DNA of 64,000 nucleotides from Perkinsus olseni (taxonomy: Eukaryota). The translations under genes were made by a program, and so were the position numbers. Position 1 is the stretch's first letter. The number at the start of each line of letters is the position of its first letter. The stretch is taken from positions 62,001-126,000 of the forward strand of contig JABANN010000016.1 of NCBI GenBank assembly GCA_013115125.1, read 5' to 3'. The notes under the pieces are model-generated. The model was not told the DNA's origin. It made no database searches and was given only the letters and a program-made list of their open reading frames with translations. Of this stretch, positions 25,078-61,343 are shown piece after piece.

Positions 25078-26691
25078 ATGCCCAGCGACGATGGTTCCTC
25101 TTCAAAATCAGTGGTTAATGCCGTACCACAGGAGGCTGGCTCCCCTCCTGCCAAGGAGGAGCTGACCACAATACAGGTGTATACGAAAAACTTTCCTCTC
25201 ATTTGCAAACTGGGTGCTGGATTCTTCGCTGATGCCTACGATATGTTCGTTATAGATATCGTCCTGGCCATTCTCAGCGAAATGCAAGAAGCAGATCCTA
25301 CTGGATTGGGTATGGACGCCAGCACGAAGGGTCTGGTGGCATCTGCAACGTCCATTGGTGCCGTTGCGGGTATGCTTTTTTTCGGTGTTGTCGGCGATCA
25401 AGTTGGTCGTAGAATTGGCATCTTATGTACTGGTGCGTTCGTGGCACTAGGTGCAGTTTGCTCAGCGTGCATACAACGGTCTACGACCTTCTCACTTGCT
25501 CATCAACTCTTCGTATGTCGTTTAGTGCTTGGATTTGGAATCGGTGGTGAGTACCCTCTATCTGCTGCTATGGCATCGGAGCGCTCTGATAACGCAACGC
25601 GTGGGCGCATCACGACTGGTGTTTTCTCGATGCAAGGACTCGGGATGATATTTGCCGCCGTTTTGCCTCTGATACTGCTCTACTCTGGCTGTCCTATGGA
25701 AATCTGTTGGCGTGTTCTTGTCTGCTTCACCGTCGTGCCCAGTCTCACAGCGCTGTACTTGAGGCTGGGCATGAAGGAGTCTGATACTTTCAAGGAGCAA
25801 CAAGCGCGCAAGAAGCAGAATAGGGCGAGTTTCTCTACTCAAATCAAGGGTTTCCTGAGGACCTTACAGGTGTATATAAAACCCCTCATCGGCACTACGA
25901 TGGCATGGTTGTGTATGGATGTCACTTTTTATGGTACCGGTGAGTTCAAACATTCAGTTTCGGCTGAACTTTTTCCCAACGGCAGTGGGGTTCAAGCCGT
26001 AATCCAGGACGCTTGGTTCGCCTTGGTTGTCTCTTTACTAGCCTTACCTGGTTACATCTGTGCCTGTTGGTTCATTGATATCCTCGGGCGGTGGAAAATA
26101 CAAGTCCTGGGTTTCGCTATGATGTGCATCTTCTACGTTGTTATGGCCATATGTACGCAATTCAACGCGAATAAGTACCTCAATTTGATCATTTTCGGCA
26201 TCACTTTCTTTTGGACTAATTTTGGTCCCAATACTACGTCTTATGTTATTCCCTCTGAGATATACCCTACCAGTGTAAAGACCACATGCCATGGTATGTC
26301 TGCAGCTTCTGGAAAGATTGGTGCGATTATAGGATCTTTCATATTTCCCACATTGCAGACTTCTATAGGCCTCGCTGGTGTTATGTATGTTTGCACCGGT
26401 GTGGCCGCGTTGGGTCTGGTCATTACTCTGATATTCCTGCCTAAGAAGCTGGTTGAAGCCGCTGCTAAGGGCATCTTCCTCATTACCCCTCCTACGTCAA
26501 GTCAGGATGAGCAACAAGGAGAGGAAGGCGATTCGAAGGTGATTTCTTCCTCATCGTCCGCCTCCACGGTATCTGTGGATGGGAGTTCGACGGCCTTCCA
26601 TGATATCGAAGAAGGCCGTGTGTCTAGCGAGTCTACTTCTGGTTTTGAGGGAAGTGCGGTACAGATTCGGCCAGCAGAGGGTGAGCAATAA
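25078..26691 (+). CDS. Inorganic phosphate:H+ symporter, PHO84/Pht1 family, copy 5 (long Ser/Glu-rich C-tail)
   Basis: GFFADAYDMF, GIGGEYPLSA, NFGPNTTSYVIPSE; 537 aa, intronless. Confidence 0.93.
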   Translation: MPSDDGSSSKSVVNAVPQEAGSPPAKEELTTIQVYTKNFPLICKLGAGFFADAYDMFVIDIVLAILSEMQEADPTGLGMDASTKGLVASATSIGAVAGMLFFGVVGDQVGRRIGILCTGAFVALGAVCSACIQRSTTFSLAHQLFVCRLVLGFGIGGEYPLSAAMASERSDNATRGRITTGVFSMQGLGMIFAAVLPLILLYSGCPMEICWRVLVCFTVVPSLTALYLRLGMKESDTFKEQQARKKQNRASFSTQIKGFLRTLQVYIKPLIGTTMAWLCMDVTFYGTGEFKHSVSAELFPNGSGVQAVIQDAWFALVVSLLALPGYICACWFIDILGRWKIQVLGFAMMCIFYVVMAICTQFNANKYLNLIIFGITFFWTNFGPNTTSYVIPSEIYPTSVKTTCHGMSAASGKIGAIIGSFIFPTLQTSIGLAGVMYVCTGVAALGLVITLIFLPKKLVEAAAKGIFLITPPTSSQDEQQGEEGDSKVISSSSSASTVSVDGSSTAFHDIEEGRVSSESTSGFEGSAVQIRPAEGEQ

Positions 26692-26890: not shown

Positions 26891-27698
26891 CTTACTAGAA
26901 TGGTTTCGTGCTCATTAGTGTATTCTGTTGCTAAATACCGTCGTTGTGGTGGACAGTGGTTGTTGCCGGTGGGGCGTTTAGTAGACTTCGCCATTGTGAG
27001 CTGCTCTCGGGACTCTGTCTGGGGGTTTCACAAATTCCCTCGGGTAGATGCGGAAATATTACCAACAGCTTCTTTGACACCTAGTAAGATGTGTAAGTGA
27101 AGCTCTTAGGACGGTGATAGTCTACCAATTATCAACCGTGCCCGACTTCGGATTGATTAGGAGCCACGCTGATGCCCGTATCTTCCTCGTGCGCAGATAT
27201 CCTACAGTTTCGGATACTTCCAGTATCTTGGTGTTTTCAGAATCGCCAACCGCTGCTTGCTTTACACACAACTCTCATCAAGGTGAACATGATTTGCAGG
27301 GCTCTGTTTTGTTTCTCCGCAAGCTGTGCCTACACTATGGCAGGATGCCCGCCCCTAACCGCCAGGGCAGCTCCCTCGACGCTTCGGTCGTCGAAGTCTG
27401 TTTTCGACTTGGATAAGATTATGCAGTGTGGGATATTGAGTCCGCTCACTTCAACGAGTAACAGCGGCCACGCTAGACTTGTAGGTGATCCGCTCCCCGT
27501 GTGATTCATCCATAGAGATCCTCTCATTTCTTTTTTCATTCAGGGGCTGCCGTCTGTCACCAACAGCACCGAGCGGTCCGAGAACAGTTCCGAGGTAGTG
27601 TTTCCCAGTCGAACAGGTGCGGGTACATGCTTTATTAGAGTACTGCGATTGCACCGACAAGGCTGGTTGTCGGAGATTCTGTTGAGATTGCAGGCGTT

Positions 27699-29096
27699 AT
27701 GTACGTTATAGAAAAGGCCGTCGGGTCGGGCTCCTTCGGGACGGTGTGGGAAGCGCGAAGTGGAGATGTACGAGTTGCGATAAAGGCCACTGACAAGTCC
27801 GGGGCGAGGGAAGCCGAAGCCATGCAAGCGTGGAAGAACTGTGCGGCAGACGCTCGACTTAGCCGACTTATTGCGTTCGACAGGCGAAGGTGCTTGTTAG
27901 TACTGGAGCTTGTAGCGGACTCCGTGGGTCTGGACGGCTGGGTGCAGAGCGATGATGTTGATCAGGAGATGGATACCGTAGGGGCTGTTGCTGTTTGCAG
28001 GAGGCTTTTGTCGCAGATGGCTGAAGCGTTGGAGCTTACCTCGAAGTTTGTTGTACATAGAGATGTTTGTTCCCATAATATACTAGTTAACGTGAAGACT
28101 GGTGACTTCACATTGATTGACTTCGGCCTCTGTGCCCAGCGACGGACGTTCAACACGCGTCAAGGGTTGGCGGGGGACTGCCGGTATTGGCCAGTGTGTG
28201 AGTGGCTGCTGTTCCTACGGGGGCACCGGTATGTCGAGAATTGCCCGGCGATGCTACATGATTACATTCATAGGCTAGATCATCACGCCCTGGCCCTTAC
28301 TGTTATTGAGGTCCTCTCGAAGTTGTACAGACGCATTGGGCGTGGTCCGATGCTGGAGTGCCGCAGCAGCGAGGATGAATTGTGGCGGTCTGCGGATTTA
28401 TCGACCGCCCTGTTCAGTGTGAGCGAAGGTTCTTGCGGGGATAGCAGTTCGATGGTCAGCGCGAGGTCTTCGAGAGACGGTGAGGTGCCGGAGGAAGTTA
28501 TCGGATTGGACTCTCCCGGTCGTTCGGATGCTGGGTGGGAAAGCGGGAGCTGTGCGGTAGAGAAAGTAGTGGTGGCATTCGAGAAGTACTGGGAAGAAGC
28601 AACGCCGTTTTGGAAGGATCTGCTGGGGACGTTTAAGGAGGAGGGCAACTGGGGAGCTTTACAGCGGAGGCTTGATGCTCAGCGGGTAGTAGGGTTGCGA
28701 ACCATGGATGGATTTTTTCTGGAATTGTCTTCCATGTCGTTGCACGGTTGGAACATCGGCAATGTGCCCCTATGTTAATAACGTTGCTTATCCTTCTTCA
28801 GAATCGGTCTCCTCGTCATTCGCGATCGCGTTATTGCACAACGCTACTCGCCTTCGGATTGACCATCGCCTGCTTTTTTCTTGGCAGGCTCCTACTCGAA
28901 TACACGAGGCCTTAGTGGCGTTGAAGCAGAGTATACTGGATGGGGTGGCCTCTCCCGGTGCTTCGCCAGAGGTACTGGAATATACCCGGGTTGTTCCTCT
29001 CGGCGATACGGTGCGTATCATGCGGATGGATATCTGTTGTTGGGTGATTGCGATAGTCGACTGGTGATTCGTATCACGAACCGCGCGGAAATATGA
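27699..29096 (+). CDS. Protein kinase, divergent (3' end spliced, approximate)
   Basis: Gly loop GSGSFGTV, VAIK, HRDVCSHN, DFG in ORF 27699-28778; probable donor near 28686. Confidence 0.85.
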
Positions 29097-39270: not shown

Positions 39271-42200
39271 AGGTTAAATCATTCAACTGCCAATAATGAG
39301 AACAAGACTGTATTCGGGGCTGTTGATTCGTTCAGCGAATTTCGTTGTGCTAGGTCACCACATGCTCATCGAACCAATTCTCCCAAGCAAACGGCAGAGT
39401 GGAGCCTCAACCTTGATATTCCTCGTGTTAAAAAGGAGGAGCGCCAACGAGGAGCAGGGGTTGCCTGCCGAAACACCCGACAGATGTAACAGCAAAGTCA
39501 TCTCCAAGAGGGCGGCCACATCCTAGCAACCGATACGGAGAAATTGAGCACCTTCTCATTTCGGGGAGCGCGCCAAGGAGGATGGAGAAGCTGTATGGCC
39601 TATCTGTGAGATTCCGTGTTGAAACTGGCTTATTTTTAGGTGGAGAAGACAACAGAGCCCGACGAGCTCAGCTCGTGGAAAAAGCGGGGACTCGCTCGAC
39701 CCGATGGAACCATCGGGTGAGATATCCAGTAGATCGGAAGTTCCGATTCGGAACCGTTGCGCCAGGGACACAGTCATGTCACTTTGTTGGGATGGCGCCT
39801 GGAAATGCTAGATACCAGGACAGGAGAAGCTGGCTATGCTAGAAGCGCGACTGTTCCTCGTCCGGTGGCATTGCCGATACCTCGATTCGCGGGGCGGATA
39901 CAGCCTTTGGGCTACAGGCCGGAGCCTCCGGCCTGGGGGTCGAGGGGAGGCCTGAGGGGAGCCTTGTGCACTCACAAAACCGCCGTAATGGAGCCGCCAA
40001 GCACCACGTCGTGCCGAAGCAAGGAACACTGGCCAACCCCTGATCTGCACTCATTTTGATCTTGATCAGGCGCAGGGCCATCATCGATAGAAAGACCGAT
40101 CATGGTGCCGACAACGCCTCTGGTTGGTGCCGACCAGCAAGTCAAAGGCGACAGCATAACTGAACCAAGGACTTAGTCATAGTGGGCGCTTTAGGGCCCC
40201 CTAAACTAGGGGAAGAACCCGTGACAGGCGGCAGCATGCGTTAAACGCGTGCTAAGAACTTTTTACTTGCCCTGCGCGCGGCTGTTATCGCACTGAACGA
40301 ATAATATTGCGGAAGGAATGCATTCTTCCCTGGGGTAGCACTTCGGTGACTTCGGAGTCACTGACTCCCATCCGAATATCAACCACTTCGTATCCAAATC
40401 TCTGGAATATGACAGCTCCGTCCTTGTGAAAACGACTCAATTTGATCTCAAATTGAGATTCTCAATTGATCTCAGAGATCAACTTATATCCGGCCTAGAG
40501 CATCTCAGTCGTGAGAACCTGCAAGAATATCGTTGGGAGATCGCTACCATGAAGGAATAATGATTCTGCTGCGCTACTTCGGGCGCGCTCTACGCGACCT
40601 GATTGCGTCCGTCAGCGGAGATTCGGACTCCGAGGAGTCCGACCGCGAAGAATATGAAGGCGAATCCGAGGGCGAGAGCGAGGAGTCTGAAGGAGCACCA
40701 TCCGAAAGTGATGCACCTAATGGGGGCTAAAACTGTGAGCCTCCCGTGGTCTAGGTTCCGATATATCCCCCATCGAGCGCGTCGGAAACAGCGGCTCCCC
40801 AGCTCTGTGGAACTCTGAGAACGGCATCAATCCGTTCAACTTCATTTCACGAGTGAGCCTAGGGGCCATAAGTTAGAGGGATCGCAGTCGTTTCGTAATC
40901 ACCCCATCAAACAGTTTGATTCAAACTGGATATGAGCTCGGCCCGCTGATTCGGCACAGATTCGATCTCACCAGCTGTCCCGCAGGCTCAGTCTCCGGTT
41001 TGGTCCCCGCTTACTCTAGCACGAGTGAGCCCTCCCAGGTCGCTTCCAGAGGTAAACAGGGAAGGCCTCGTCATTCTACGACATCGAGTCTACGTGATAC
41101 AATTCATTGTGCCATAAGCGATGAAAAATTGCTCACAGCAGCATCCTTGCCTTACACTGCAAGCCTAGACTCTCACTCACTTTCAGAACGTCTGCTCCAA
41201 CCATTCGATGTCTCGCAGCGGGCAGTTGCAGACTAGCAGCAATGCCGGCCACCCGATGAGACTTCGCAGAAGAGAAAGAGTTGACTATCGTGCTTCACAC
41301 AGCCGTGGCAAGCAATGAGCTTCATTGGCCTTCCCGCCTTCAAGGCGGGATTCTAATCAGAGCTCAGAAGCGCTGCCTGAATGCATGTTCAGTTGGTGAT
41401 TTTGGATGTTTCGAGTTCCTATTCGAGTCCATGTGTGCCGTTCGCTATTCCGGATAGCCAGTAAGTCGGCACCATCGTGAAGCCGCTGCCGGGCAGCCCA
41501 TGCCTTACTATAACCCGAAAGCAGGCCGCAGCCAGCTGTACTCGGTCAGCTGCACTGTACCCTCTCCGCGTTGCCCTACACGACGACGGCCGAAACTCCC
41601 CGCAACCCTAATAGGGGCTGCCCTATCAACTGATACCGATTGTGCAGGGAGCTCAGGACTGCCGGACCCAGGTTGGCCCGATATCTGTAGAGAGCCACTA
41701 CCTATGGCGCCATGCAGGAGCTGCAGTGCTTTTTGCAACTCTTCGTTGTTCATCCAATAATCGAGCGATGGATACTGAGCATCAGGGACCGCACTGCAAC
41801 CATCTAGCAACCATTAACAAATCAACGGTGTCGCTCAACGGGTTTACTGCATGCAGTCATGAATCATGACTCATGATGGCGATTCGCCATTGGCGAACGC
41901 CTCAGGAGTGGTTTATTTTTCAGCACCTCGGCAACCTTGCTCAGAAGTGAAAAGTGCTGAGAAGTGTGGGGACTCACTGCCTGACAACGCTCTTTGGCCT
42001 CTTTTCTTTTTGATACGGCACCCCTCCCCGACTTTACACCACCAAAAAATCTACTTTTCGTTACGTACAGTGCTATAATATTTACATTTAGGTATTTTCC
42101 TGCGGAAAATGTTGAGTTGTAATATCTGTCGTGGAGATGTCTGTAATACGTCATGAGGAAGCTCCACCGCAGGCAGTTGTTCTATTCGTAATCTCGTAAT

Positions 42201-42479
42201 GCAACGTTGACAATCTGACATTATACCACAGATGCTGAAATGCGTTGCTAAAGTGCTCAGATGTTGAAATCCTGGAAATCCGCCTACTACTCGACAATCT
42301 TGAAATTCCCCAATGTCTGCGCATTCCTAAAGTGCTCAGATGTTGCAAACCTAGGCCCGATCGCAGCCAACAGAGCCCGATACGTGCTGTTCTTCCGAGC
42401 CCAGCAGAGCAAGATCGATGCCGAGTAGACCGGAGCTTGGTTTGCCTATCAACAAGTCCACTGAGTTCGGAAGGCTGAT

Positions 42480-45158
42480 GTGCTGCGCAGATGGTTTGGG
42501 AAGTCTGAAGGAGGAAATAAGAGGAAGGCTTGGCAAAAGAAATGGCCCCTTACTGACTCGACATGGTCCATGGTCAGCAAATTGATGGATAATGCATACC
42601 TTGATGGCTACGGATCATGCCAGCATAACCAGATAGGATCGCCGCGGTTCATAGTAGCCTTTTGTGACGCTTCGAACGAGGAATGGGGCTTGCTTCTCTA
42701 TGCGGTGGAAGAAGAATATGACCCATCATCAGATGTCTTTCCGCCTAAGGAAAAGCTTATCGAAGCACATGCCGGTGAATGGGACGATAAGAAAGTGAAT
42801 TATCATGTGAACCGGAAGGAGGCGATTACGTTACATCGGACAATGAAGGCCATTACAGAGTGGTTACCTAGGTTCATGTTAGACGTCAGACAACGCCTCC
42901 AGGTTTCCATTTACTGCGATAATAGCAGTGCAGTGGCTTGGGCTAATAAAGGCTCGGTCTCAATGCGTTCGTATGACAAGGTAGCCTTGCAGCGTCTATC
43001 TGAGTCAATGAGCGACATGAGAAGAGATTGCCAACTGCAATTCAGTGTCACCTTGAATGTGAAATACATCCAGGGGTTGAAGAATAAAATCGCAGATCGA
43101 CTAAGTCGTAGTGATATACGGAGTCACATGTTGCCACCGTTGAAGTCGAATACCCATAAGACTCCTACACCGAAGGAACCTGATGAAACAGTAGTCATGA
43201 TAGCAACCCCTTCCGGGGAGCTCGGTCTTGTTGATACTGTAGGATTACCTCATCGTGGTGTATGGAGTAGTCATATGATGGACCCGATGTATGTACCTAT
43301 GAGAACAGACAATGATCTTGACGAGCCACTAGATGTACTCGTAGCCTCACCGCTCAAGGGAGCTGCTGCAACTTCGGACTACGAGAGTCTTGTGGGCTTG
43401 GGGAATTGGCAGTTGCCAGACATATTGGATCACCTGAGACAAGCTTTTAAAGATAAAGCCTTTCTCGAAAAAGAAGAAGTGACCCAAGGAGTCACCTACC
43501 TTGATTTGATAAGCTCATTACAACCCGATATGTATCCCGACTGCAGACCTAGTACCAGGGCTCAGAACCTGGCTGAGGGATCATCAAAGGGTCCATTATA
43601 TAGATGGAACAAAGAGCAAAAGATCTTACAGGCTATTGACCCAAGAGAGGATAAGCCACTTTGGTGTTATGTATTAATCACACATAGGGCCCAGATGTGG
43701 GCTATATACAAAGTGCACGATCATCCTCTGGCTGGGCATAAAGGTCTACCACGAGCTGTATTCTCCATGAGGAAGCTTCAGCTCTGGTGGCCGACTCAGG
43801 TATCTGATACAAATAGATTTATAAGATCCTGTAAGATATGTCAGCTTGCGAAGTTGCATGATGTTCCAAGTACGCAACCACTAGCTTATAGACGCTGGCA
43901 AAAGCGTTTTGAAACGATCCAAATCGATTGGATGGGACCTTTCGCCCCCACGACGCAGAACGGCCCCTGCCCGCTTCTATCGCCAGACTCACCCGTATAC
44001 TATTGCATTATGATCTGTGAAGCCACTAAGGTCATGATGGCGATACCATCTCGCTCGAATGATACTCGATGTCTGATAAGTTGCTTGATGCAATGGATTG
44101 CAGCATACGGTCCGCCGTGTACCCTGCAAATGGATAATGCGGGAGCACACCATAATGCATCAGAGCTTTACCCTTTTTTGCAATATTGGGATATACACCC
44201 TCGATATGGCCTCTCTAGACGACCGGAATCGCAGGGCCTTGTGGAGCGAGCGATAAGGGACCTGAAAGATGGTATAAGGATGGCTAATATACATACAGCA
44301 GCATCTACCCTACCTTGGTGGGCTGCAGTACAAATTGCCACAGTTGTTCATAACAACTCGATGAAGTCTGGGATAGTTCCATGCTCGCCAAATGAACTTG
44401 CCCTAGGTGATGAGAATTCTCTGATACGCAACCTTGGGCGAGGGGGCGGTGAGACACCAGAATCGATCTGGGGGACAGTCAACTCTGTTGTGAAGGACCT
44501 TTTCGAAGCAAACCAGGTAGCGGTAGCAGAGCGTGCCCTTGCAGCTGAAACCCAAGAGTTGGCCAAGTCTCAACCAAAAGCAAGATTCGTACCTGAACAA
44601 GAAGTGAAAATGAGCCGAATTGTTAATGGCAAGAGAGAACTGAGTGGGCCTTACAAGATTCTTAGTGTCAGTAATGACAACCCAATGGTATTTCAGCTTG
44701 AAGGCCACAAGTTTCCAGTACCGATAAGCCATCTTTTGCCCTTCAACATGAGTGTTGAACGAGATAGATACGACCATGCGGCGAAACCTGGCATTGATAG
44801 ACTATCAGTAAGTCTGAAAGATAAAGCTCCTTGGGGAATTCCCCTCGACGAAGCAACTAAACGCCATTGGGTGGTGTACCGTGTATTAGATGAAACAGAT
44901 GAGTCTCCAGAGCCAATAACGACGATCTATATTGCACAAGTCATTGCTCATAAGGCTGATCAGAAACTCCTTGTTCAAGGACTTGATAGTACAAATAGAG
45001 GCTCATGGAAGCTACCACCGAAAGGCCATCGATCTGATGCACAGCACCTCATTCTCTATGATGACGTGGTGGGAAGAAAGGCTTTCCTTCCAACGGCGAA
45101 GGATCGCCTCCCAAAGATTGTTCAAGAGTGGCTCAATTCTGTTGGCGTTTCATGCTGA
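42480..45158 (+). mobile_element. Ty3/gypsy-type LTR retrotransposon pol, 5'-truncated: RNase H + integrase
   Basis: RNase H FCDAS..WG, NRKE, YCDNSSA, YIQGLKNKIADRLSR; integrase HHCC (HDHPLAGH...CKIC), DDE core (QIDWMGP, QMDNA, SQGLVER) and GPY motif (SGPYKI). RNase H precedes integrase; RT core and gag are absent. Confidence 0.92.
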
Positions 45159-45180
45159 CGCAGAAATCAGCGCGCGCCTT

Positions 45181-45365
45181 GGGGGGGCGTGTTGGTTTAT
45201 CAGGCGCGGTACCCCGAGTTGCGACGGATATATTTACGACATTCTAGTCGAGTTGGCTAATATGGTTGTCTCGTGAGCGATGCACCCGGGTACGATCCCG
45301 GTTCACTACATTTTTGTATTCTGTCGCTGTCCCATCATTGCGTATTTTATAGCTATTTATATCAT
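45181..45365 (+). mobile_element. Candidate polypurine tract (G7) and start of a 3' LTR (TGTTGG at 45190) containing a tRNA-like segment; LTR end undefined
   Basis: GGGGGGG 22 nt after the pol stop, then CG-TGTTGG; no second LTR copy found in the window. Confidence 0.45.
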
Positions 45366-45399
45366 CGATTACGCTATGGAGGGAGGGGGAGCCGTTGTT

Positions 45400-48249
45400 C
45401 TATATTGATTGATAAATAATCCTATTATCGGCCTCTGATGTCTGGTGTTGAGTCGACGAGTGATATGTCAATTGTGGGCGAGGATCACCCCTCGGTATCC
45501 CAATCCATCGGGACCGGTAAACACGGTTTCCTCGATCAGTCGTGGAGAAGCATTCCTCGGGAATAGGATCATTCGGACCAGGAACCTATCTCACAAAGAA
45601 CTTATTCGTCGCCGCTAAATGAATGCAGTCTTACCTCGTGATCTCCCTCCTGCCCGTCAGGATTTCCCATAGGTGGTGCACCGGGAGGTGCTTCTCCTTG
45701 GGGTAGTGGCGCCTCTGCCGGCACTTGAGGTGGCTGCGCTGCTGCTGGTGCTGCTACTGGCTGTCGTACAGGATGTGGTGGTACTGCTGCTGGTTGTGGT
45801 GCTTGAGGAGGTGGTGGCGCTGCTGCTGGTTGTGGTGCTTGGGGAGGTGGTGGTGCTGCTGCTGGTTGTGGTGCTTGGGGAGGTGGTGGTGGTGCTGCTG
45901 CTGCTGCTACTGCTGGTTGTGGTGCTTGGGGAGGTGGTGGTGCTGCCGGTGCTGGTTGTGGTACATGAGGTGGTGGTGGTGGTGGTACTGCTGCTGGGAC
46001 TTGAGGTGCTGCTGCTGGCACTTCAATTAATAATTGCTGTGGGAGAAGGCCGCGTAATACCGTCTCGACAGTTTCTCGAACCATGTTGCCGACCAGAGTC
46101 TGCAGTCCAGGAAGTAGTTGTTGGAGCTCGCCTGCCGCCGCCTGTGCAGGCTGGCCTACTCCAATCGCTATTGCGTTACCGACTGGATCCCCTACGGCTG
46201 GGTCGGCTACCGCATCGGCCATTTCATCGTTCACTTCATCGGCTACCGCCTCGGCTACTCCATCGGCTACTCCATCAGCTACCGCCTCGGCTACTCCATC
46301 GGCTACTCCATCGACTGCCGGCTCGGCTACTCCATCGGCTGCCGCATCACCCACTTCATCGGCTACTTGATCGCGCAGTTCATTCCCCGCGTTATCCCCT
46401 AGTGCTACGTCTCGGTCCTCTACTGCATTTGCAGGCTCCACCACGTCTGGCGCGTGGAGGCCATCGTTGACTGCCCCGGCATCGATGTTACCATCGTTCA
46501 AGAGATCGAGATCGATGTAAAAGTCGTCTGGTAGGGGGAGGAGTTGCAAGGGTTGAATGAGGTCCTGTCCGTAGTCTCGAATAACCTCGCCATCACGCAC
46601 GCCCCCAGGGATGGCCCTCTCTCGCCGTATCAACGTTGCCCAATCATTCAGGCCCGAGTAGTGCATCAGAAGTAAGTGAACCGTCTCCGCCGATACTTCG
46701 AACAACCCCTGGGCAGGCACCTGGCTCTCATCAGGAGATAGAGGACACAGCATGTGATTCTCTATGAGCATAGTATTGATAAAACTTCGCACTTGAAGTT
46801 CGAGCGGGTACAACCCCGCGATATTATCGTAAGACCTTCTGCAGTTCGGACAGCGAGGTTCCGCGCCCACCTGATGTGAAGCTCTGGAGCATATCGAGAC
46901 TGCAAGGATATAGCCGAGACAACTTCGGCAGAGCCATTTCTCGCAGGCACATTTCCATTCTTCCTCGTGATTTGTGTCAACGCTGCAGACTATACAAGTT
47001 TCTCGCTCAGCTTGTTGAGCAGGCGGGCTTAGTCGATAAATGCAAGCAGCTACCTCATCTTCAATACTCTCGCCATTCATCTGCATCCTGCTCCCATCAC
47101 AACGAAGCGCAGCCCGAAAGCTGAGCATGCCGTTGGAGTTGGCTATCGTTCGATCAAGGAGTCGCCGGCCTCTCGAGAGCCCAACTCCGAAAATGAACTT
47201 CGGAAGTCCCAAATCAGTCATGACAATACCGGGGGATGCACCAGCAACACCCCCACTAACTTTCCTCAAAGTATTCTGCCGCTCCGCTGCCGGCATGAAG
47301 TTACTCTGTACGAGCGATATCACAGGTATTCGGACCTTCTGCCACAACTCTTGCCTAGTGTAGACTCCTCCCCAAAGAATGTCGACACATTTGACAAGTA
47401 GTTCTCGAGCTCGGTCCTCGGCCCTCTGTAGAAAACTAGCCTCATCCGCGTTAGTAACGGTGAAATTTGAAGATAAAATAAGCCACAGAAGGGGACTAGC
47501 CCTCCAGGCAACGTCGTCGTGATCCTCGGCTGGACGCAGGTCTTCCTCACTCAGGCCAAGTTTAAAACGGACTGCATCTGAGACAGCTCGTCTCACAACC
47601 TGAGGAATTTGATCCAATGCAAAAGGGGATAAGCATCAGTGATACTTTGAGTTTCGAGCCTTGAACGATTTCGTCTATGGCCTTCAACAGCTGCACTGTG
47701 GCATAACGATCAACCTGTACGATGTTCACGCCCTCGAAGCCATAGTGGCGATCAAGGTAACTGCTCCCAGACAGGTAGAGTGATACGCTGCAACTGCGGT
47801 TGTGGTTACCTTATTATCTGAGCCACGTCAAACTGTTGGCCCGTTCTGTTCCAGAAATTCTCTATTGCTACATTAGTGAGTGCTTGACCGGTAGGCGATA
47901 TGAGAGCCTGAAAGGCAATGCGGATAAAGCGAGAATTTCATCCGTTGTTTGACACTACCCCGTAGATACGACCTGTCTCGTCCGGCATAGCTACAGGTCT
48001 TATACGCAGCTCTCTCAGTATTGTAAGAAGATTGGTGAGAACCCCGCTGCCTATACGGCGTCGCTTTCTCACTGCATCACACGTCGCGCAGAACCATGGA
48101 TGCTGAGTATTCTCGTGAATTTGGGGGCGATAGTTATGGGCACAGTGGTGAGTGTGAAACCAACGGTCACAAGTCTCGCATATGACCATAGGCCCGCCAA
48201 GTTCGCCACATAGGCCGCATGCATCACTGATGGGATTGAACGGATTCAT
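45400..48249 (-). CDS. PHD-finger + RING-finger protein with acidic and Pro-rich repeats; five-exon model, about 884 aa
   Basis: Exons 48249-47959, 47907-47810, 47760-47646, 47599-45635, 45585-45400 are joined by four 46-51 nt GT-AG introns that all preserve frame. PHD CGLC..CETC..H..C..CATC; RING-like CIVC..CACEKWLCRSC..CPNC. Confidence 0.75.
45775..46370 (-). repeat. Coding tandem repeats: PPPPQAPQPAAA units and VADGVAE-type units
   Basis: Visible in the translation of ORF 45602-47617 and as ~36-bp and ~12-bp periodicity in the DNA. Confidence 0.85.
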
Positions 48250-48670
48250 TGATGATAGGAGAGTGTAAGATTCCGAAGAAAATACTACACGCAATTACTA
48301 ACGAACGCGGTAAGTAGCCGGGTTTACCGTGTTGTTTCACGATATGACCAATTCGAGATAATTTTTCCTACTGGGAAATTCGTAGTATGGCGGTCTCGCA
48401 TTGCAGCACTCTGTTGTTCATCGTCCATGTTTCTAGGATTGTGCGGCATATCGTATTATGCTTTTTACGAGTGTTTAATCATTAAACTTTCATGCTTCCC
48501 CACAGTGTCGAGACGACACCCCAGACTGACGAACGCAAAACATGACAATGCAGAGTTTTTTGGCAATAAAACAATGAACAAATGATGAATTTATAGCCAT
48601 GAAATGATGGAGGGATGATGACGAAATTGATGACAATGAAATGGTGAAGGTTCGAACGGATAACAGATAG

Positions 48671-48933
48671 ATGGTTTCCGGGCTGACTAGGTTTCGCGGT
48701 TCTGTTGTGTTTGATAAATAGAAATGGTTTCTGGGCTGACTAGGTTTCGCGGTTCTGTTGTGTTTGATGAATAGAAATGGTTTCTGAGCTGACTAGGGTT
48801 CGCGGTTCTATTGTGTTTGATGAATAGAAATGGTTTCTGGGCTGACTAGGTTCGCGGTTCTATTGTGTTTGATGAATAGAAATGGTTTCTGGTCTGACTA
48901 GGTTTCGCGGTTCTGTTGTGTTTGATGAATAGA
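48671..48933. repeat. 53-bp minisatellite, 5 copies
   Basis: Unit ATGGTTTCTGGGCTGACTAGGTTTCGCGGTTCTGTTGTGTTTGATGAATAGAA starting at 48671, 48724, 48777, 48830, 48882; few differences, no spacers. Confidence 0.97.
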
Positions 48934-48959
48934 GGAGTTCATTTTAATTGCCCTGGATT

Positions 48960-49345
48960 TCTACTCTCGGTGTACTGATGAACACAAGAATCATCAGAAT
49001 TCGGACTACGATCTTAGATTAAAAATTTGTCTTCACGATCACCATACTAATCAGACAAAAAGGTGCGAATTTCGGAGTAGAATTGAACAGAAGTGTGACC
49101 ATCACCTTCCTCCTGCTGAAATTGAAATACGATGTGGAGGTCATCAGTAATTACGGCGCTGTGGAAAGTCGCAAAGGGCGATATAGAGAATAGTGAACTA
49201 GAAGCTAATCTGATCACAGCTTGTATGATTACAACGTCGTTGAGGAAGTTAAATACTGTGATGAAACGACTGCCAAGTTGTTCAGTGAATAGTCCAAGTG
49301 AAAAATCTTTATCAAGACAGAGAGCAATGGCATACCCTGGTGTTT
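48960..49345 (+). mobile_element. Degenerate 3' remnant of an RTE-like non-LTR retrotransposon
   Basis: Frameshifted peptides RLKICLHDHHTN, IRCGGH..LRR, TTSLRKL, LYQDREQWHTLV follow the order of RTE C-terminal motifs (ILxIxWxDxVTN, LRWxGHxxR, TTWxR, AxDRxxWxxLV). Confidence 0.45.
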
Positions 49346-50338
49346 TCGGCAGCAGTGCTACCCACTCCACCATACAAGCAGCGAGAGAATCACCAGGATA
49401 GCACACCAGGAGGCATAGCGGAGAGTACCCGTCGGCTCCACCCCAAGATCTCATGCCCCAACGAGGATCTGAAAGTGAGAAAAACACAACGCGGAAGTGA
49501 GGAATGATCTTCAGGCTCAAGCGGGGCTCAGGCCGCCAGTGGTAACTCACCTTCGAGTGACCACCAAGCTGCGGAAAATTCATCACCGGCAATCAGGGAG
49601 CGTCTCCGTTCGAAGCGCCGTCCTGACTACCAAAGCCTCGGGCGCGGCGAATGGCGCTTCGTGAGCCGCTGAACGCTCTCGGCTCGGGGTCTGCAGTAAC
49701 GGGGCTGCTGTGACAGAACCTAACATAATTAACGAATCATTTCACCACCCACCTACTTGCGTTGAGTAACTTACTGTGTGTGCACACGTGCATGAGTGTG
49801 CGTGCGAGTGCACATTCGCAGCAAAACCCAAACACACGGGACTGGTGCAATAGATTTTCGAGGTCATAGAAGAATTCGCATTACTGCCGATCAAATTCTA
49901 TTCTCATTCTGCCAATGAAAAACTACTCCCGTTTGTTATTGGAAAACTCACAGCGTGGATCCGATGGTTAATTACCTCGAAGATCGAGGCTCGAACACAA
50001 TCAACACCAGAGCGAAATATAGGATGCGGGAAGATGTCAACTATGAGACGAGAATACGACAGAGCTCATAGCAGACTCTGCGATGCAGAGCGAGGGAAGC
50101 AGGATGGTATTTGCAATTGGGTGCGGGCCGCACCGTGCGGCACCTCGAGCGTGCGCGCGTACAAATTTTCTCTCTTCAGCCAAAGCGTAAATGCGGCCTG
50201 GACGTACATCAAACGGATTCACATGGTCTCGGCACCTCAGGACGATTCGAAAAACACTTTCGATTGCCACAAGGTTCAAGGTTCACACAAGGTTTCGGTT
50301 GCCCCAGCAAGTTATGCACAAAAATCATTTCGTGACAG

Positions 50339-50415
50339 AAAAAACGCAAGGCTTAGGATTCGAACCGGGGACCCTGGCGTGCAGTGTATATTCCACCATC
50401 TCGAGTTGACGGCTT
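50339..50415 (-). other. Degenerate tRNA-like (A-box/B-box) segment followed by T6
   Basis: Minus strand AACTCGAGATGGTGGAAT ... AGGGTCCCCGGTTCGAATCC ... TTTTTT; stems do not form a full cloverleaf. Confidence 0.6.
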
Positions 50416-51078
50416 CGCTGAGTTCCTCCATCGCGTCGCGAACGTCACGTTACTATTACTGCGCATGACCCTCGTCCCCCCCGCTTACGTCATTGAAGAT
50501 TTCAGACACCGGTGATGCTCATCACTCATCCCCCGGGTCCCCCATAGGAGTCATCTCCCCGCAACATAGCCGGGCATCAAAGCGGTAGCCACCTAACCGA
50601 CACTTCGCAATGACGAAACACATGATCCCAATGATGCCCAACTGAGGAAAGCATCGTATTTGTTTAGTGATCGAACGACTTGGGCCGTGCATACCTCAGC
50701 TCATCCTGTGGCTTCTTCTCAAGCCGTACTTTCCGTGGTCGGGATTCAATCTCTCTTGGAATTCTAAAGTCTCGTACATCCATTGCGGAAATCGAGGGCA
50801 ACCCTGCTGATAAGAACTCCTGTTACAAAAGGAGACAGTCATGTAGCCATGAATAATGAACAGTCAATTCGGTCAGCCCGCAGATATGCCATGAGCATCA
50901 GATCCAATTGCGGATAAGTTGCGGCAGTGTTGTGGCCACGCATGCATTCATAAAGCGTGATATCACAATGGATGGTGTGTCAAGGTCCCTGAGGCTATAA
51001 GCGCTGCAACTCAGGACTGAAGTTTAGCTCGGGGCGGATGGGGCACCAGTCAGCACAGTTAGGGGCAATTCAGTGGGG

Positions 51079-51667
51079 GTGTTCAATAGACCTCTCCCGA
51101 AAATCAGGGCCGCTCCCAGAATTGAATTTAACGTGTAAAATACGATCGTGGGAGCGTTCTTTTTTTGAGTGGAAACGGAATTATACACGTCCGACATGGT
51201 AGATTATACGGATCACAAGTGAAACGTTTATCAACCTTAACCAGCCAAACAGACAGACGAACGCCCGCAAGCACAGGCCAATCAATAGTAAGTAGTATAG
51301 ACATGCTTGCCTACTACGGTGCGCAAGACAGAAGGTTCCGTCGTGAGCTACGATGCATCAAGACCCGCAAACCAGACGACAACTCTGTGCTCCTGGAGAA
51401 CGTCGTGGAGCGGGCGACCACTCCCGTCACCATCGAGCGCAAGTCACCACCTTGCTCGTTCTCAGACGTATCGCCCCGGGACCACCTCCAGGATTCACGA
51501 TCGCCAATCAGGAGACTTCGTTGCCGTCGTGAGAATGCAGGACCTCAATGACATGAAGACACTACTTCCCCCCGGACTATTGCACGTGAGTGCCATACGT
51601 GCAATACATACGTGTAAAATACGATCGTGGGAGCGTTCTTGAAACTCAGGCGAGATCTATTGAACAC
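51079..51667. mobile_element. Possible MITE-like remnant with inverted ends and an internal 31-bp direct repeat
   Basis: GTGTTCAATAGA at 51079 is inverted at 51656-51667 (19/22 when extended); ACGTGTAAAATACGATCGTGGGAGCGTTCTT at 51131-51161 and 51610-51640. Confidence 0.5.
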
Positions 51668-54600: not shown

Positions 54601-55273
54601 GACAGCGTCAGAGTCTCAGCGTGAGCTGCTCCAGTGGTGGACGATATGTCCCTAGTCCTCGCGGAACTCTCCTATCACCATGTTTGGTGAATGACAGCTA
54701 TTCTTCCGGCTGATCAATTGACGAAGTCGCCCTCCTTCCGAGTACTGCACACTCACGCTCAGTCTACTCCAATAGCTGTCGTGCTTGTGAACGGCCTGTT
54801 CTACAGTTGTAGATTTTTCCCTCGGTGTTCTCGCGTTAGCTCTGTTGCTGCTGCTACCATAGTAGGCTGTGACCTTTCTCTTGATGTATATAGTATTTCT
54901 ACGTACATACCTACATTCTGTAGCGGTAGGATAGAAATCTTGGTACACTTGGAATTCCTCAAACAAGTCATATAGGATCAATGCTCGTCATCATCATGAT
55001 TATTACATTTCTCATTGAAACAGCGGAAGTAGTAGGAAGCTCCGTTTGGCTTCCCTGCGCGTCTCACTTCTGCCAGGTCGCTGCTTCGGGAAATTTTATT
55101 TTTTATTTCTAATCGTACATCACGACCTCTGCTCAGTATTGAGTTCCGCCAGTCCTCAATGACGGGAAAACTGCCGATTCACAAGGTATCTTCGGCATGT
55201 CTGTTCACCTCGAGTAACCTCTAGAATTCGTCTCCGGCTGTAAGCTAGATGTCACAGTTTCCCCTCTTTTCTG

Positions 55274-55897
55274 ATGTCCGACAAATCTCTTCCCGTAGTC
55301 AGAATATTTCCTGTAGGCCCCTCCTGCGACCCCTTGCCGGTGGTCAAGTCCCTAGGGCTCTCGAGTACGCCCGCAACGCTCGAGCTGGATACTAAGTATT
55401 ACACCTGCAGTGTTGATGTCCATTGCCGCTCTCAAGAAGTGGACGAGGAGCCGGCCGAGGCTGTCGTTGTGGTAGTAGACCGTCCGGGTTCGATCTGTCT
55501 TCCCGAGAGTCGCTTTGACGAGTCCGCGGTTAAATTGATGGTTGCTTTGGGCCCGATGACGACGGCAGCGGAGGAATGGTGTTGGGATAGGGGGTTCGAG
55601 GTGGTTGATTTTCATGAGGAGCCCGAGCGAGTTCTCGAGGCTTTGAAGATGCACCATTGGTCTAACGCTAAGTTGAAAACTGCGCAGGAGGGAGGCGGAG
55701 CGAAGCAGGAGGAGTCGGTGAAGAAGGCCAACGAAGTGAGTATAGAAGAATTGGACGGTCTGATGAGCGAGATAAAAGCGGCCCACGACTTGGCACTGCA
55801 AGGCGGCTCCGACGTAGAAAGGAAGCAAAGGGCTGAGCAGCTGGCTATGAGACTGATGCAGTGTATGGAATCCGACAGTGAGGACGAAGATGCCTGA
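55274..55897 (+). CDS. AAGAB: Alpha- and gamma-adaptin-binding protein p34 (AAGAB/Irc6 family)
   Basis: LDTKYYTCSV, EWCWDRGFEVV, ERVLEALKMHHWSN and C-terminal ERKQRAEQLA match the family motifs; intronless 207 aa. Confidence 0.8.
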   Translation: MSDKSLPVVRIFPVGPSCDPLPVVKSLGLSSTPATLELDTKYYTCSVDVHCRSQEVDEEPAEAVVVVVDRPGSICLPESRFDESAVKLMVALGPMTTAAEEWCWDRGFEVVDFHEEPERVLEALKMHHWSNAKLKTAQEGGGAKQEESVKKANEVSIEELDGLMSEIKAAHDLALQGGSDVERKQRAEQLAMRLMQCMESDSEDEDA

Positions 55898-58988: not shown

Positions 58989-61343
58989 ATGAGGCCTGCT
59001 AGAGCCAGCGAGTCCTCTTCCACTTCTGCGCGCGTCCTTCGTGGACAGCTGGTATTAATTATGGGAAAGTGTAGTTTTTCCACTGCCATTGTCCCACCCC
59101 TCATGTTGTCGTTGGTCCCCAAGCCCAAGAGTGATATACGGGAATTAGCATCCAAGGTCGGTCCTCGCACTCGGCAAGTCTCGCTCATCTGGTTGCTACA
59201 GATATCTGCTCGTGTTGCCAAGAAGTCGGGCTCGCCAGTGGTGGTTCGTAGCGTTGGCGATTTCGTCGCCCTCCACAACACTGACGTTTTCAAGGGACTG
59301 AACGTTGGCTTCGTAAGTTGGGTTCGCGGAATAACCCCTCGGTGTACTTACGGTCGATTTCGTGCAGTTTCTGTCGGTTCGACCGACGAAGACCTATCTT
59401 AGGATGCGTGCTTCCAGGACTAGTGCAATTTATTTTTCCGAGCTTGACATCGCGGATGGCCCGAGCGTTCTGGGCATCCTTTCTAGTGACGGAAGTGCAT
59501 ATTGACCGGGCCCAAACAAATCGCAGATTGGCAGATCATGAGTTAGCCTCCACTAAGGCCGATGTCGTATCTCAGCGAATATAGGCTCTCCTGGGGTGGT
59601 TCGTTTCGCATTCTGGGGTGTAGTTTCTCCCGTACTGAAGCATCGGGCATTCCTGTCGATGGGGTTTCTTGGTCATGGCCCTTTTCTCAGATCCCCACGA
59701 TGGGTTCGCTCCACTCCGGCCACATGAAGCTCATCGCTGCCGCCCGGCCCAATCACGATGTCCTTGTTTTGTCCATCTTCGTCAACCCCGCTCAGTTTGC
59801 CCCAGAGGAGGACTATGACCAGTAGGCCGACCGGGAGTTTGCTATTTAACAAACACGATGCTAAAGTTACTCGTTGCTCGGTCGCTCTCCGTAGTGAACT
59901 TATACCCAACGAGCCTCGTAGTTCCTTGTAGTACTCTCAATGTGGTCATCCCCGGATACTCTCATCACTCTCTCTGGCGGAATTGGCTCACTTTCAGATA
60001 TCCGAGGAACCTCGAGGGCGACCTCAAAAAGTTAGAGACGGAGTCAGCTGCTGGTGTTGATGTCGTCTTCGCGCCCGAACCAGCTGACATGTACCCGAAG
60101 AACCCCCGAGCTGTAGTGGTAGGGAGGGCGGTGGCACATATTCAATATAGTGGCGCAGGTGTGAAACTCAGGATGTGATAAGCGTGTTGTCTTTCCTCAG
60201 CCCAGCGTGACTGTCGAGCCAAACTTCGTCAACGGTCTTTCGGAAGCAGCATGCAGGCCGACGTTTTTCCGCGGCGTGGCGACAGTTGTTATGAAGCTGT
60301 TGAACATTATTCGCCCGAAGAGAGCATACTTCGGACAGAAGGTACGGGTGTGGATGTCCTCGAGAAACGCGCGTCGAAGGTCGGATTTTCAGGACGCTAT
60401 GCAAGTGAGCGTCATCATTTCCATGGTTAAGGACCTGAATGTTCCAGTGGAGCTTGAGGTGGTGGAAGGAAAGGAAATTATAGTGAATCAGCTTCGCTCC
60501 GCTGTAGATTGTGCCAACAGCCCGTGAAGCAGACGGTCTGGCTTCCAGTAGCCGTAACGTGTACCTCACTTCCGCTATGCGTGAGAAGGCTCCCATTCTC
60601 TACAAGTGAGTGACTGGGAGTGAAGGAAGGGAGGAATGTTGTTTTCGTGTGGCAGGTCGCTGTGTGCTGCCTACGACATGATCAAGTCATCGAAGGAGCC
60701 CGTGAAGGCATCGGAGGTCGAAGAGGTGGTCAAAAAGACTTTGTTGACGGAGCCTATGGTTCTAGGGATCGAGTAGTGCTGGGAGACATATCGGTAGAGT
60801 TTGATTTTGAATATATCATAATTATAGTAATATTGGATATGATATCATGCTGACTTCAGGACATTTTTGCCTTGTACACAGTCATGATATTATGCCAAAT
60901 ATTCATCTCATAGGTTGCCTATAATAAGTGGTGGTTACCATCAATCGATAGATATCACTTAGTGATGTTGCCATCACTGATGGCCCATCAGATGCTTTTA
61001 TCGCCTTGTTATAGTATACCTATAATCTTGAGAATACTAATATGAGTATATAGACGTCTACTTGGTCATGGCAAGTTCGCACTCGTTCGAATAGCACGAC
61101 ACGTTCCAGCAGTCTCTCCGTATTGGTGAATTACAGGTACATTAGCGTGGCATCAGTGGAAACTGCACAAGAGGTGGACACCATCCAGTTTGGACCTGAT
61201 GCGGAGCCGGTAGTAGCATGTGATGAGGCGTGTTGTGGCGATGGTTGTGCCGTCAGGTCCTCGTTGCCATTGCCGTGAAGTACGGCGGCCCTGATCTGCG
61301 GTTGATCGACAATATGTGGATGGACAATCAGCAGCACGCATAA
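58989..61343 (+). CDS. panC: Pantoate--beta-alanine ligase (pantothenate synthetase), multi-exon; start uncertain
   Basis: [68 protein letters not shown]. Confidence 0.93.

What the first reader, a model, noticed from the sequence alone, without database searches (positions are those of the whole stretch)
42480..50485. Intact spliced PHD+RING gene facing a gypsy integrase inside a transposon-debris zone: candidate retroelement-borne chromatin reader/E3 ligase
Seen: the ORF track shows a 118-aa PHD ORF and a 671-aa RING ORF separately, but four 46-51 nt GT-AG introns join them in frame into one ~884-aa protein (48249-45400). It ends only ~240 nt from the pol stop, on the opposite strand, in a region where most other sequence is decayed. 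Known: PHD fingers read histone H3 tails, RING fingers are E3 ubiquitin ligases, and some plant gypsy lineages (Tat/Retand, Grande) carry antisense ORFs and tandem repeats 3' of pol. Inference: this could be element cargo acting in anti-silencing or targeting rather than a host gene. The RING is also atypical (no His at the usual ligand positions).
Basis: partly seen in the sequence, partly recalled or inferred. Interest (0 to 1): 0.8.

Follow-up and report, generated by a model that had tools for sequence, protein, structure and literature searches.

The report
Truncated PHD-RING Mutator-like transposase gene
The spliced PHD-plus-RING gene is real, but it is the front half of a cut-and-paste (Mutator-like) DNA transposon gene of the oyster and clam parasite Perkinsus that has lost its transposase half, not cargo of the neighbouring retrotransposon fragment.

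Summary
On the minus strand, five exons (48249-45400) joined by four GT-AG introns of 51, 49, 46 and 49 nt give an 884-aa protein. It has a PHD finger (Pfam above threshold). It also has an eight-cysteine RING-type finger without histidine, invariant in five lineages and RING-like in a predicted fold.

The gypsy-cargo interpretation is not supported. The window is Perkinsus olseni or a close relative. In paralogues 27-65% identical, the same N-terminal module continues in one gene model into a FLYWCH-type zinc finger and a MULE transposase domain. A partial protein from another isolate shares the window's exon 4/5 junction and then continues into FLYWCH and MULE. The window copy breaks off about 29 codons into exon 5 (near 45499). 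The missing half is nowhere in the 64 kb.

The facing pol ORF is an isolated RNase H-integrase fragment with no RT, gag or LTR pair.

A PHD plus RING head on a MULE transposase appears undescribed in my searches. No genome DNA or RNA reads were usable.

The parts
47959..48249 (-). Exon 1: start codon and PHD finger (ligands C11, C14, C24, C27, H32, C36, C53, C56 of the protein)
   Evidence: Pfam PF00628 at 25.9 bits against a cut-off of 24. The PDB sequence search returned 52 matches at E<=1, nearly all PHD fingers, best E 0.0055. Conserved in P0003 and P0008.
47810..47907 (-). Exon 2, between introns 47958-47908 (51 nt) and 47809-47761 (49 nt), both GT..AG
   Evidence: The protein across both junctions matches P0001 and P0003 without gaps.
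47646..47760 (-). Exon 3, followed by intron 47645-47600 (46 nt, GT..AG)
   Evidence: tblastn of P0003 aa 131-169 matches here.
45635..47599 (-). Exon 4 (655 codons): helical domain, small beta-rich region, RING-type finger, conserved helical region, then a disordered acidic repeat and a proline-rich repeat
   Evidence: Single open exon. AlphaFold2 model of residues 1-400, mean pLDDT 68.3. tblastn of P0003 aa 168-629 matches here.
46841..46996 (-). C4C4 RING-type zinc finger (eight Cys; residues 202-253 of the exon-4 translation)
   Evidence: The eight Cys are invariant in 7 of 7 aligned sequences. Most of the 50 rows shown by VIA-align wide are RING-type zinc fingers on model residues 196-271, Z 4.5-6.2. 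A PDB profile search gave TRIM and RNF38 RINGs at E 0.05-3. No Pfam RING hit on the window ORF.
46203..46406 (-). 12-nt-period coding repeat (acidic, Ala/Asp/Gly/Val-rich linker)
   Evidence: the repeat finder family D3; Tandem Repeats Finder.
45671..46056 (-). Proline/alanine-rich coding repeat (periods 18-90 nt)
   Evidence: the repeat finder family D1; Tandem Repeats Finder.
45400..45585 (-). Exon 5, after intron 45634-45586 (49 nt). The first 87 nt (45585-45499) encode the start of the family's FLYWCH-type region. The remainder is an unrelated tail that ends at stop 45402-45400.
   Evidence: tblastn of P0007 aa 13-38 and P0003 aa 657-682 matches 45585-45499. The family C-terminal HMM matches only its positions 1-19 here.
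45159..45498 (.). Spacer between the pol stop and the break in transposase homology. Origin unknown. It has G-rich runs at about 45181-45188 and 45380-45393 that could be polypurine-tract-like (my reading only).
   Evidence: Sequence read. No second copy anywhere in the window.
42465..45158 (+). 897-codon open frame of an LTR-retroelement pol fragment: RNase H (weak), integrase zinc finger, integrase core and a C-terminal extension of unknown type
   Evidence: Pfam Integrase_H2C2 at 35.4 bits (cut-off 25.5), rve E 9.8e-5 (below cut-off), RT_RNaseH E 0.032. PDB matches: PFV integrase 7.4e-8 and Ty3 Gag-Pol 8e-4. No RT, protease or gag upstream. No LTR pair.
48671..48933 (.). 53-nt tandem repeat, 5 copies, about 420 nt upstream of the start codon. 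It may be subterminal sequence of the DNA transposon; this was not shown.
   Evidence: Tandem Repeats Finder, 95% matches, score 470; the repeat finder family D6.

Best explanation
The gene is a 3'-truncated copy of a Perkinsus-specific Mutator-like (MULE) DNA-transposase gene.

Full-length architecture: PHD finger, helical domain, C4C4 RING-type finger, disordered acidic/proline-rich linker, FLYWCH-type zinc finger, then a DDE transposase of the MULE type.

The window copy keeps the whole N-terminal head intact and spliceable. It breaks off about 29 codons into exon 5, inside the start of the FLYWCH region near 45499, and then runs into unrelated sequence to a stop. It therefore has no DNA-binding or catalytic part and cannot transpose on its own.

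The 5'-truncated gypsy-type pol fragment lying tail-to-tail with it is a second, unrelated element remnant. The two were brought together by nested insertion and/or deletion in a transposon-rich stretch.

Inferred, not shown: in full-length elements the PHD finger tethers the transposase to histone H3 tails. The RING either recruits an E2 (ubiquitination of chromatin or of the transposase itself) or mediates multimerisation. Either would bias where or when the element integrates.
For: 1. Organism and relatives. The best hits are P. olseni proteins at 94-99% identity, plus a 65%-identical paralogue, P0003, of 1147 aa with a MULE domain.

2. Fused architecture in divergent lineages. P0006 (38% identical to P0003) aligns to P0003 in one stretch, residues 78-1143, and has Pfam MULE at 34.4 bits against a cut-off of 27.6. 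P0009/P0155 carry the RING module plus MULE. P0008 (P. chesapeaki) carries PHD plus MULE.

3. The window's own subfamily. The first 33 residues of P0007 equal the window's exon 4 end plus exon 5 start. P0007 then continues into the FLYWCH-like region and MULE.

4. The missing half is absent. tblastn of four C-terminal halves and a 474-position family HMM against the six-frame window find only 45585-45499.

5. The C-terminal half belongs to a large transposase family. There were 1933 hits at E<=1e-3. Of 14 proteins scanned, 11 matched MULE at E<=0.01, and 6 of those also passed the FLYWCH cut-off.

6. Dispersed fragments typical of a mobile element. Two unrelated P. marinus gene models carry a 129-aa piece 92% identical to P0003.

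7. The pol is an isolated fragment.

8. The PHD and RING identities are supported.
Against: 1. No terminal inverted repeats or target-site duplication were found, so the element's boundaries are undefined.

2. The fused architecture rests on public gene predictions. I had no DNA of the paralogues and no RNA evidence.

3. The MULE score of P0003 is just under Pfam's cut-off (26.5 against 27.6, E 8.9e-6). Those of P0008, P0009 and P0155 are lower.

4. The truncated copy is fully open over 884 codons. It keeps 22 of 25 residues invariant in four other lineages and 53 of 58 invariant in three. That also fits a gene kept by selection, not only a recent truncation.

5. One P. marinus model (P0004) joins a reverse-transcriptase domain to a linker fragment of this family. 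So retroelement sequence lies beside family fragments at least once more.

6. Histone binding and E3 activity are inferred from domain type only.
Confidence: 0.8

Rival explanations
1. Domesticated or regulatory derivative. The copy originated as above, but the transposase-less PHD-RING protein is now expressed and maintained. It might act as a chromatin factor, or as a repressor or competitor of the full-length transposases, in the manner of truncated P-element repressors (recalled analogy).
For: The 884-codon reading frame is intact, with four canonical introns. All eight RING Cys and the PHD ligands are retained. The copy keeps 22 of 25 and 53 of 58 family-invariant residues. The same truncated locus is modelled in a second assembly's annotation (P0160).
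Against: No RNA evidence (searches were uninformative). No orthologue of the truncated form was seen in P. marinus or P. chesapeaki among the hits. The 62-aa tail after the break is unrelated sequence. The neighbouring pol fragment is equally intact (897 codons), so intactness here may simply mean the rearrangement is recent.
Confidence: 0.13
2. One reading: the PHD-RING gene is antisense cargo of the gypsy-type retroelement whose pol it faces.
For: Tail-to-tail adjacency, 242 nt apart. Both ORFs are intact in an otherwise non-coding stretch. One P. marinus gene model joins an RT domain to a fragment of this family.
Against: Every sufficiently long relative links the module to a MULE transposase, not to pol. 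The window gene itself starts the FLYWCH region. No LTRs enclose the pair. The pol lacks RT, protease and gag. The RT in P0004 has a motif I recall as non-LTR (LINE) type; I did not test this.
Confidence: 0.03
3. The junction between the transposase gene and the pol fragment is an assembly chimera, and the real locus carries a full-length transposase gene.
For: The break lies next to long coding tandem repeats, which are hard to assemble. Another isolate's contigs break inside those repeats (P0001 ends in them and P0007 starts after them).
Against: The break (about 45499) is 170 nt beyond the repeats, in unique sequence. Two annotated assemblies give models of the same locus (P0002 and P0160), though they may not be independent. 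The window contains no N.
Confidence: 0.04

Closest known systems
FLYWCH-MULE transposases of the Mutator superfamily (Phantom/Muta-like groups)
   Same: The C-terminal half of the full-length paralogues matches Pfam MULE, and in some members FLYWCH. It has 1933 relatives at E<=1e-3. The residues D, D, CxxH and E, which I recall as the MULE signature, are aligned and conserved in P0003, P0006, P0155 and P0008 (alignment).
   Different: The window copy lacks this half altogether. The family adds an N-terminal head of about 650 aa (PHD, helical domain, RING, disordered linker). Among the 150 listed hits, that head was seen in only 5, all from Perkinsus.
Rehavkus elements (MuDR-related) and other MULEs with extra zinc fingers
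   Same: Table 1 and text passages of Dupeyron et al. 2019 (PMC6446971) list three relevant cases: a PHD finger and a minisatellite near one end in Rehavkus; a RING-finger ORF in the aphid Ghost element; and a C3HC4 ring finger in a Phytophthora MuDR. Here too there is a 53-nt minisatellite near the gene's 5' side.
   Different: In those passages PHD and RING occur singly, and in Ghost as a separate ORF. Here both sit on one polypeptide, N-terminal to FLYWCH-MULE. The hosts are animals or oomycetes, not Perkinsozoa. The paper's supplementary tables could not be opened and may list more.
RAG1/RAG2 recombinase (a domesticated transposase)
   Same: It is a functional analogy only. The abstract of PMC5175335 (listing) states that RAG2 binds H3K4me3 through a PHD finger. 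RAG1 carries an N-terminal RING with ubiquitin-ligase activity (recalled; review PMC3949197 seen only as a listing). Both are a DDE enzyme combined with a chromatin reader and a RING.
   Different: RAG comes from a different transposase superfamily (Transib-derived, recalled). Its PHD and RING are on two proteins. There is no sequence relationship, and nothing here has been tested biochemically.
   Same: An ORF on the opposite strand lies 3' of a gypsy-type pol.
   Different: No LTRs enclose it. The ORF's relatives belong to a DNA transposon. The host is an alveolate.

Membership tests
PHD finger (Pfam PF00628) | Profile match above the curated threshold | tested here: met
   25.9 bits against a cut-off of 24, E 1e-5, residues 11-57.
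PHD finger (Pfam PF00628) | Cys4-His-Cys3 ligand pattern | tested here: met
   The pattern is C-x2-C-x9-C-x2-C-x4-H-x3-C-x16-C-x2-C (protein). It has one extra residue between His and the next Cys, and this is also aligned with a gap in the PDB PHD matches.
PHD finger (Pfam PF00628) | Binding of histone H3 tails | not testable with these tools
   This needs a peptide-binding assay. The W-F-H motif after the fourth Cys resembles methyl-lysine readers, but that is recalled and was not tested.
RING finger (E3 ubiquitin ligase type) | Match to a curated RING profile | tested here: not met
   No Pfam family matched the window ORF at E<=0.1. Paralogues gave only weak PF24921 hits: E 0.0096 for P0006 and 0.71 for P0003.
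RING finger (E3 ubiquitin ligase type) | Eight conserved zinc ligands with cross-brace spacing | tested here: met
   Eight Cys are invariant in 7 of 7 sequences. The spacing lies within the RING consensus (recalled) except x4 between ligands 4 and 5, and Cys replaces the usual His. The HMMER alignment to TRIM RINGs pairs all eight positions.
RING finger (E3 ubiquitin ligase type) | RING fold | tested here: inconclusive
   In the AlphaFold2 model the blocks covering the domain have pLDDT 50-78. In VIA-align wide, most of the 50 rows shown are RING-type zinc fingers on residues 196-271, but Z is only 4.5-6.2. Foldseek found nothing at E<=1e-3.
RING finger (E3 ubiquitin ligase type) | E2-dependent ubiquitin transfer | not testable with these tools
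   This needs an in vitro ubiquitination assay.
MULE / Mutator-like DNA transposon | MULE DDE transposase domain in the gene | tested here: not met
   The domain is absent from the window gene and from all 64 kb. It is present in paralogues: P0006 at 34.4 bits (cut-off 27.6) and P0003 at 26.5 bits. The window gene is therefore a fragment of a member, not a complete member.
MULE / Mutator-like DNA transposon | Terminal inverted repeats and a 9-11 bp target-site duplication | tested here: not met
   No inverted pair brackets the gene in 30-56 kb or in the whole window. This is expected if one end is lost. It cannot be judged without full-length genomic copies.
MULE / Mutator-like DNA transposon | Multiple dispersed copies | tested here: inconclusive
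   Sixteen of the 20 hits I looked up are Perkinsus proteins, on many contigs. Fragments sit in two unrelated P. marinus models. Genomic copy number was not countable because no genome is held.
Ty3/gypsy LTR retrotransposon (the facing pol, and the gene as its cargo) | RNase H followed by integrase in pol | tested here: met
   Integrase_H2C2 at 35.4 bits (cut-off 25.5), rve E 9.8e-5, RT_RNaseH E 0.032. PFV and Ty3 integrases match in the PDB.
Ty3/gypsy LTR retrotransposon (the facing pol, and the gene as its cargo) | RT, protease and gag upstream, with flanking LTRs | tested here: not met
   No such Pfam hit in ORFs >=45 aa in 36.5-42.6 kb. tblastn with two full pol proteins matches only the integrase. 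No direct repeat pair.
Ty3/gypsy LTR retrotransposon (the facing pol, and the gene as its cargo) | Cargo gene recurs with pol in other copies | not testable with these tools
   No Perkinsus genome DNA was available. No close pol relatives appeared in the protein search (2 distant hits at 24% identity).

The most novel reading that the evidence does not exclude
Perkinsus MULE transposases carry a built-in chromatin module: a PHD reader plus a C4C4 RING E3. This module steers or licenses integration, a convergent counterpart of RAG2-PHD and RAG1-RING. The transposase-less copy in this window is retained as a trans-acting regulator of the family, or as a new host chromatin factor.
Probability: 0.12. 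Interest if true: 0.65.

Novelty: new variant of a known kind. Interest (0 to 1): 0.35.

Why it matters
It corrects the reading of this locus. Public gene models here skip the PHD exon. One of them also skips the RING and ends in the antisense strand of the pol fragment.

It also points to a MULE transposase architecture that joins a histone-reader domain and a RING-type domain to the transposase. I did not find this architecture described in my searches (passages of PMC6446971).

If the head really directs integration through chromatin marks, it would be a natural model for how cut-and-paste transposases acquire target choice. It could also be a useful part for transposon tools in Perkinsus.

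The window copy by itself is an ordinary truncated transposon gene.

Tried and rejected
- Whole genome: none is held for this window.
- RNA support for the splice model: no RNA holder was listed. The three runs laid gave only four short contigs (42-199 nt aligned) and no joints. This is no evidence either way.
The single-protein query found 43 pattern matches, none confirmed.
- ESM Atlas for exon-4 residues 1-195: no usable hit.
- Foldseek against the PDB with the 400-residue model: nothing at E<=1e-3.
- The missing transposase half elsewhere in the window: a weak tblastn hit at 30508-30386 (E 0.012-0.04) looked collinear, but the family HMM did not recover it. I dropped it.
- LTRs: no second copy of 45159-45500 or of 42000-42470. 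A polypurine-like run followed by TG after the pol stop is my reading only.
- TIRs: no pair brackets the gene.
- My first script to enumerate intron combinations timed out. I replaced it with a listing of candidate introns.
- My first joined model used a wrong intron-4 acceptor and gave 862 aa. I corrected it.
- Supplementary tables of Dupeyron et al. 2019 could not be seen. They may list Perkinsus or PHD/RING-bearing MULEs.


Full report
**What is there**

On the minus strand an ATG at 48249 opens a gene of five exons: 48249-47959, 47907-47810, 47760-47646, 47599-45635 and 45585-45400. The four introns are 51, 49, 46 and 49 nt long, all GT..AG. The product is 884 aa and the stop codon is 45402-45400.

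The first three junctions are those used in public gene models of a near-identical allele (P0001) and of a 65%-identical paralogue (P0003). The fourth is the one used in P0007. The paralogue alignment crosses each junction without gaps. These are predictions, not RNA evidence. The one search for sequencing runs listed no RNA holder. Laying the three listed runs gave four short contigs and no joints, so expression and splicing remain untested.

**Domains**

- **PHD finger.** Exon 1 passes Pfam's PHD threshold (25.9 bits against 24). Its PDB sequence matches are almost all PHD fingers (52 matches at E<=1, best 0.0055).
- **RING-type finger.** Exon 4 has no Pfam hit. It contains eight cysteines spaced C-x2-C-x11-C-x-C-x4-C-x2-C-x22-C-x2-C, invariant in all 7 aligned sequences down to 27% identity.
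  - A profile of the family matches TRIM and RNF38 RING domains at marginal E-values (0.05-3), with all eight ligand positions paired. Cys sits where those RINGs have His.
  - An AlphaFold2 model of exon-4 residues 1-400 has mean pLDDT 68.3. Foldseek found nothing significant with it.
  - An all-against-representatives structural search put RING-type zinc fingers in most of its 50 rows, on residues 196-271, at Z 4.5-6.2.
  - I read this as a C4C4 RING-type finger. The fold evidence is moderate.
- **Unassigned parts.** The helical domain before the RING and the helical stretch after it match nothing known.

**Organism and relatives**

The best protein hits are Perkinsus olseni models at 94-99% identity. 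Two of them (P0002, P0160) are models of this same locus.

The decisive hit is the paralogue P0003 (1147 aa, 65% identical). After the same PHD, helical domain, RING and disordered linker it continues into a cysteine/histidine region and a Pfam MULE transposase domain.

An exhaustive HMMER search with P0003 found 1933 proteins at E<=1e-3:
- P0006 (P. olseni, 38% identical) aligns in a single stretch over residues 78-1143. Its MULE score is 34.4 bits, above the cut-off of 27.6.
- P0009/P0155 have the RING module plus MULE.
- P0008 (P. chesapeaki) has PHD plus MULE.
- P0010 and P0014 (P. marinus) have a linker, a weak below-cut-off FLYWCH match (E 0.002 and 0.003) and, in P0010, MULE.
- Only 5 of the 150 listed hits include the N-terminal head. 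All five are Perkinsus.
- The rest match only the C-terminal half. The six non-Perkinsus ones I scanned all have FLYWCH plus MULE.

So the PHD-RING head is the N-terminal part of a Perkinsus lineage of Mutator-like DNA transposases.

**The window copy is truncated**

Homology to P0003 runs through exons 1-4 and into exon 5 (45585-45499, P0003 residues 657-682), then stops.

P0007 is a partial protein from another P. olseni isolate. Its first 33 residues are identical to the window across the exon 4/5 junction. It then continues into the FLYWCH-like region and the MULE domain, while the window diverges into an unrelated tail. Complete versions of the window's own subfamily therefore exist.

The missing half is not in the 64 kb. 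Permissive tblastn with four C-terminal halves and a 474-position family HMM against all six frames recover only the first 19 profile positions, in exon 5.

What remains is well preserved. The window keeps 22 of 25 residues invariant in four other lineages, and 53 of 58 invariant in three.

**The facing pol**

The 897-codon ORF at 42465-45158 has an integrase zinc finger (35.4 bits, above cut-off), an integrase core (E 9.8e-5, below cut-off) and a weak RNase H match. It matches retroviral and Ty3 integrases in the PDB.

It is nevertheless an isolated fragment:
- No RT, protease or gag in any ORF >=45 aa upstream.
- tblastn with two complete pol proteins matches only the integrase.
- No direct-repeat pair that could be LTRs, and no second copy of the 340 nt between the pol stop and the break.
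- Only two distant relatives (24% identity) appeared in the protein search.

Nothing links it to the PHD-RING gene beyond proximity.

How the two came to lie 242 nt apart is not resolved. One possibility is a gypsy insertion into the FLYWCH-coding region followed by deletion. The spacer has polypurine-like runs, but that is my reading only.

**Mechanism**

Shown: domain identities, the family architecture, and the truncation.

Inferred: in full-length elements the PHD tethers the transposase to histone H3 tails. The RING recruits an E2 or mediates multimerisation. Together they would bias integration or regulate the enzyme.

Features I recall as typical of E2-activating RINGs are present: a hydrophobic residue after the first Cys, Pro after the seventh, and Arg after the eighth. 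They were not tested.

The window copy lacks DNA-binding and catalytic parts, so by itself it is inert for transposition. Whether it is expressed as a regulator is open (my estimate is about 0.13).

**Comparison with what is known**

Passages and Table 1 of Dupeyron et al. 2019 (PMC6446971) list a PHD finger and a terminal minisatellite in Rehavkus elements, a RING ORF in the aphid Ghost element, and a C3HC4 ring in one Phytophthora MuDR.

Swart et al. 2013 (PMC3558436, passages) counted 21 MULE-domain proteins in P. marinus.

I found no paper describing a MULE transposase with both PHD and RING (searches; one search returned 2 papers, only one of them relevant).

The nearest functional analogy is RAG2-PHD (abstract of PMC5175335) with RAG1-RING (recalled).

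**Verdict**

The gypsy-cargo interpretation is not supported. The gene is mobile-element-borne, but it belongs to a DNA transposon and is truncated here.

The family architecture is a new variant of a known kind and is moderately interesting. This particular copy is ordinary.

Noticed in passing
window 44406-49454 (minus strand): Public gene models of this locus look mis-built. P0002 starts in ORF 49454-49098, skips the PHD exon and the RING, and ends in the antisense strand of the pol ORF (44789-44406). P0160 has the same false start and stops at the unspliced end of exon 4.
   Followed up: partly
window 15299-26688 (+): Five tandem paralogous MFS sugar-transporter genes (Pfam Sugar_tr, E 1e-36 to 1e-45), spaced 1.8-2.9 kb apart.
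   Followed up: no
window 2526-2598 and 4158-4228 (-): Two tRNA-Ala (TGC) genes 1.6 kb apart.
   Followed up: no
window 51079-51137 and 51609-51667: 59-nt inverted arms, 73% complementary, 471 nt apart. This could be a small MITE-like element in the non-coding stretch upstream of the gene.
   Followed up: no
window 48671-48933: A 53-nt unit repeated five times (95% matches), about 420 nt upstream of the gene's ATG. Minisatellites next to an element end are listed for Rehavkus and Phantom MULEs (PMC6446971 passages). Whether this one belongs to the transposon is unknown.
   Followed up: partly
P0004 and P0005 (P. marinus proteins): Two unrelated gene models (one with an RT domain, one PIG-A) each contain a 129-aa stretch 92% identical to the disordered linker of P. 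olseni P0003. That is far closer than the P. olseni paralogues are to each other. It suggests recent spread or transfer of that sublineage between species, or contamination.
   Followed up: partly
P0001 versus the window, exon 4: The allele from another isolate carries a 19-aa cysteine-rich insertion just before the RING. Otherwise it differs at only a handful of residues.
   Followed up: no
P0012, P0015, P0020 (P. olseni, one 36-kb contig): Fragments of the same MULE family lie next to, or are fused in gene models with, CRAL-TRIO lipid-transfer genes.
   Followed up: no
window 11500-12759 (-), 27639-28775 (+), 55244-55894 (+), 59819-60524 (+): Ordinary host genes frame the repeat-rich stretch: an ion-transport channel with an EF-hand, a protein kinase, an adaptin-binding protein and pantoate-beta-alanine ligase.
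   Followed up: no
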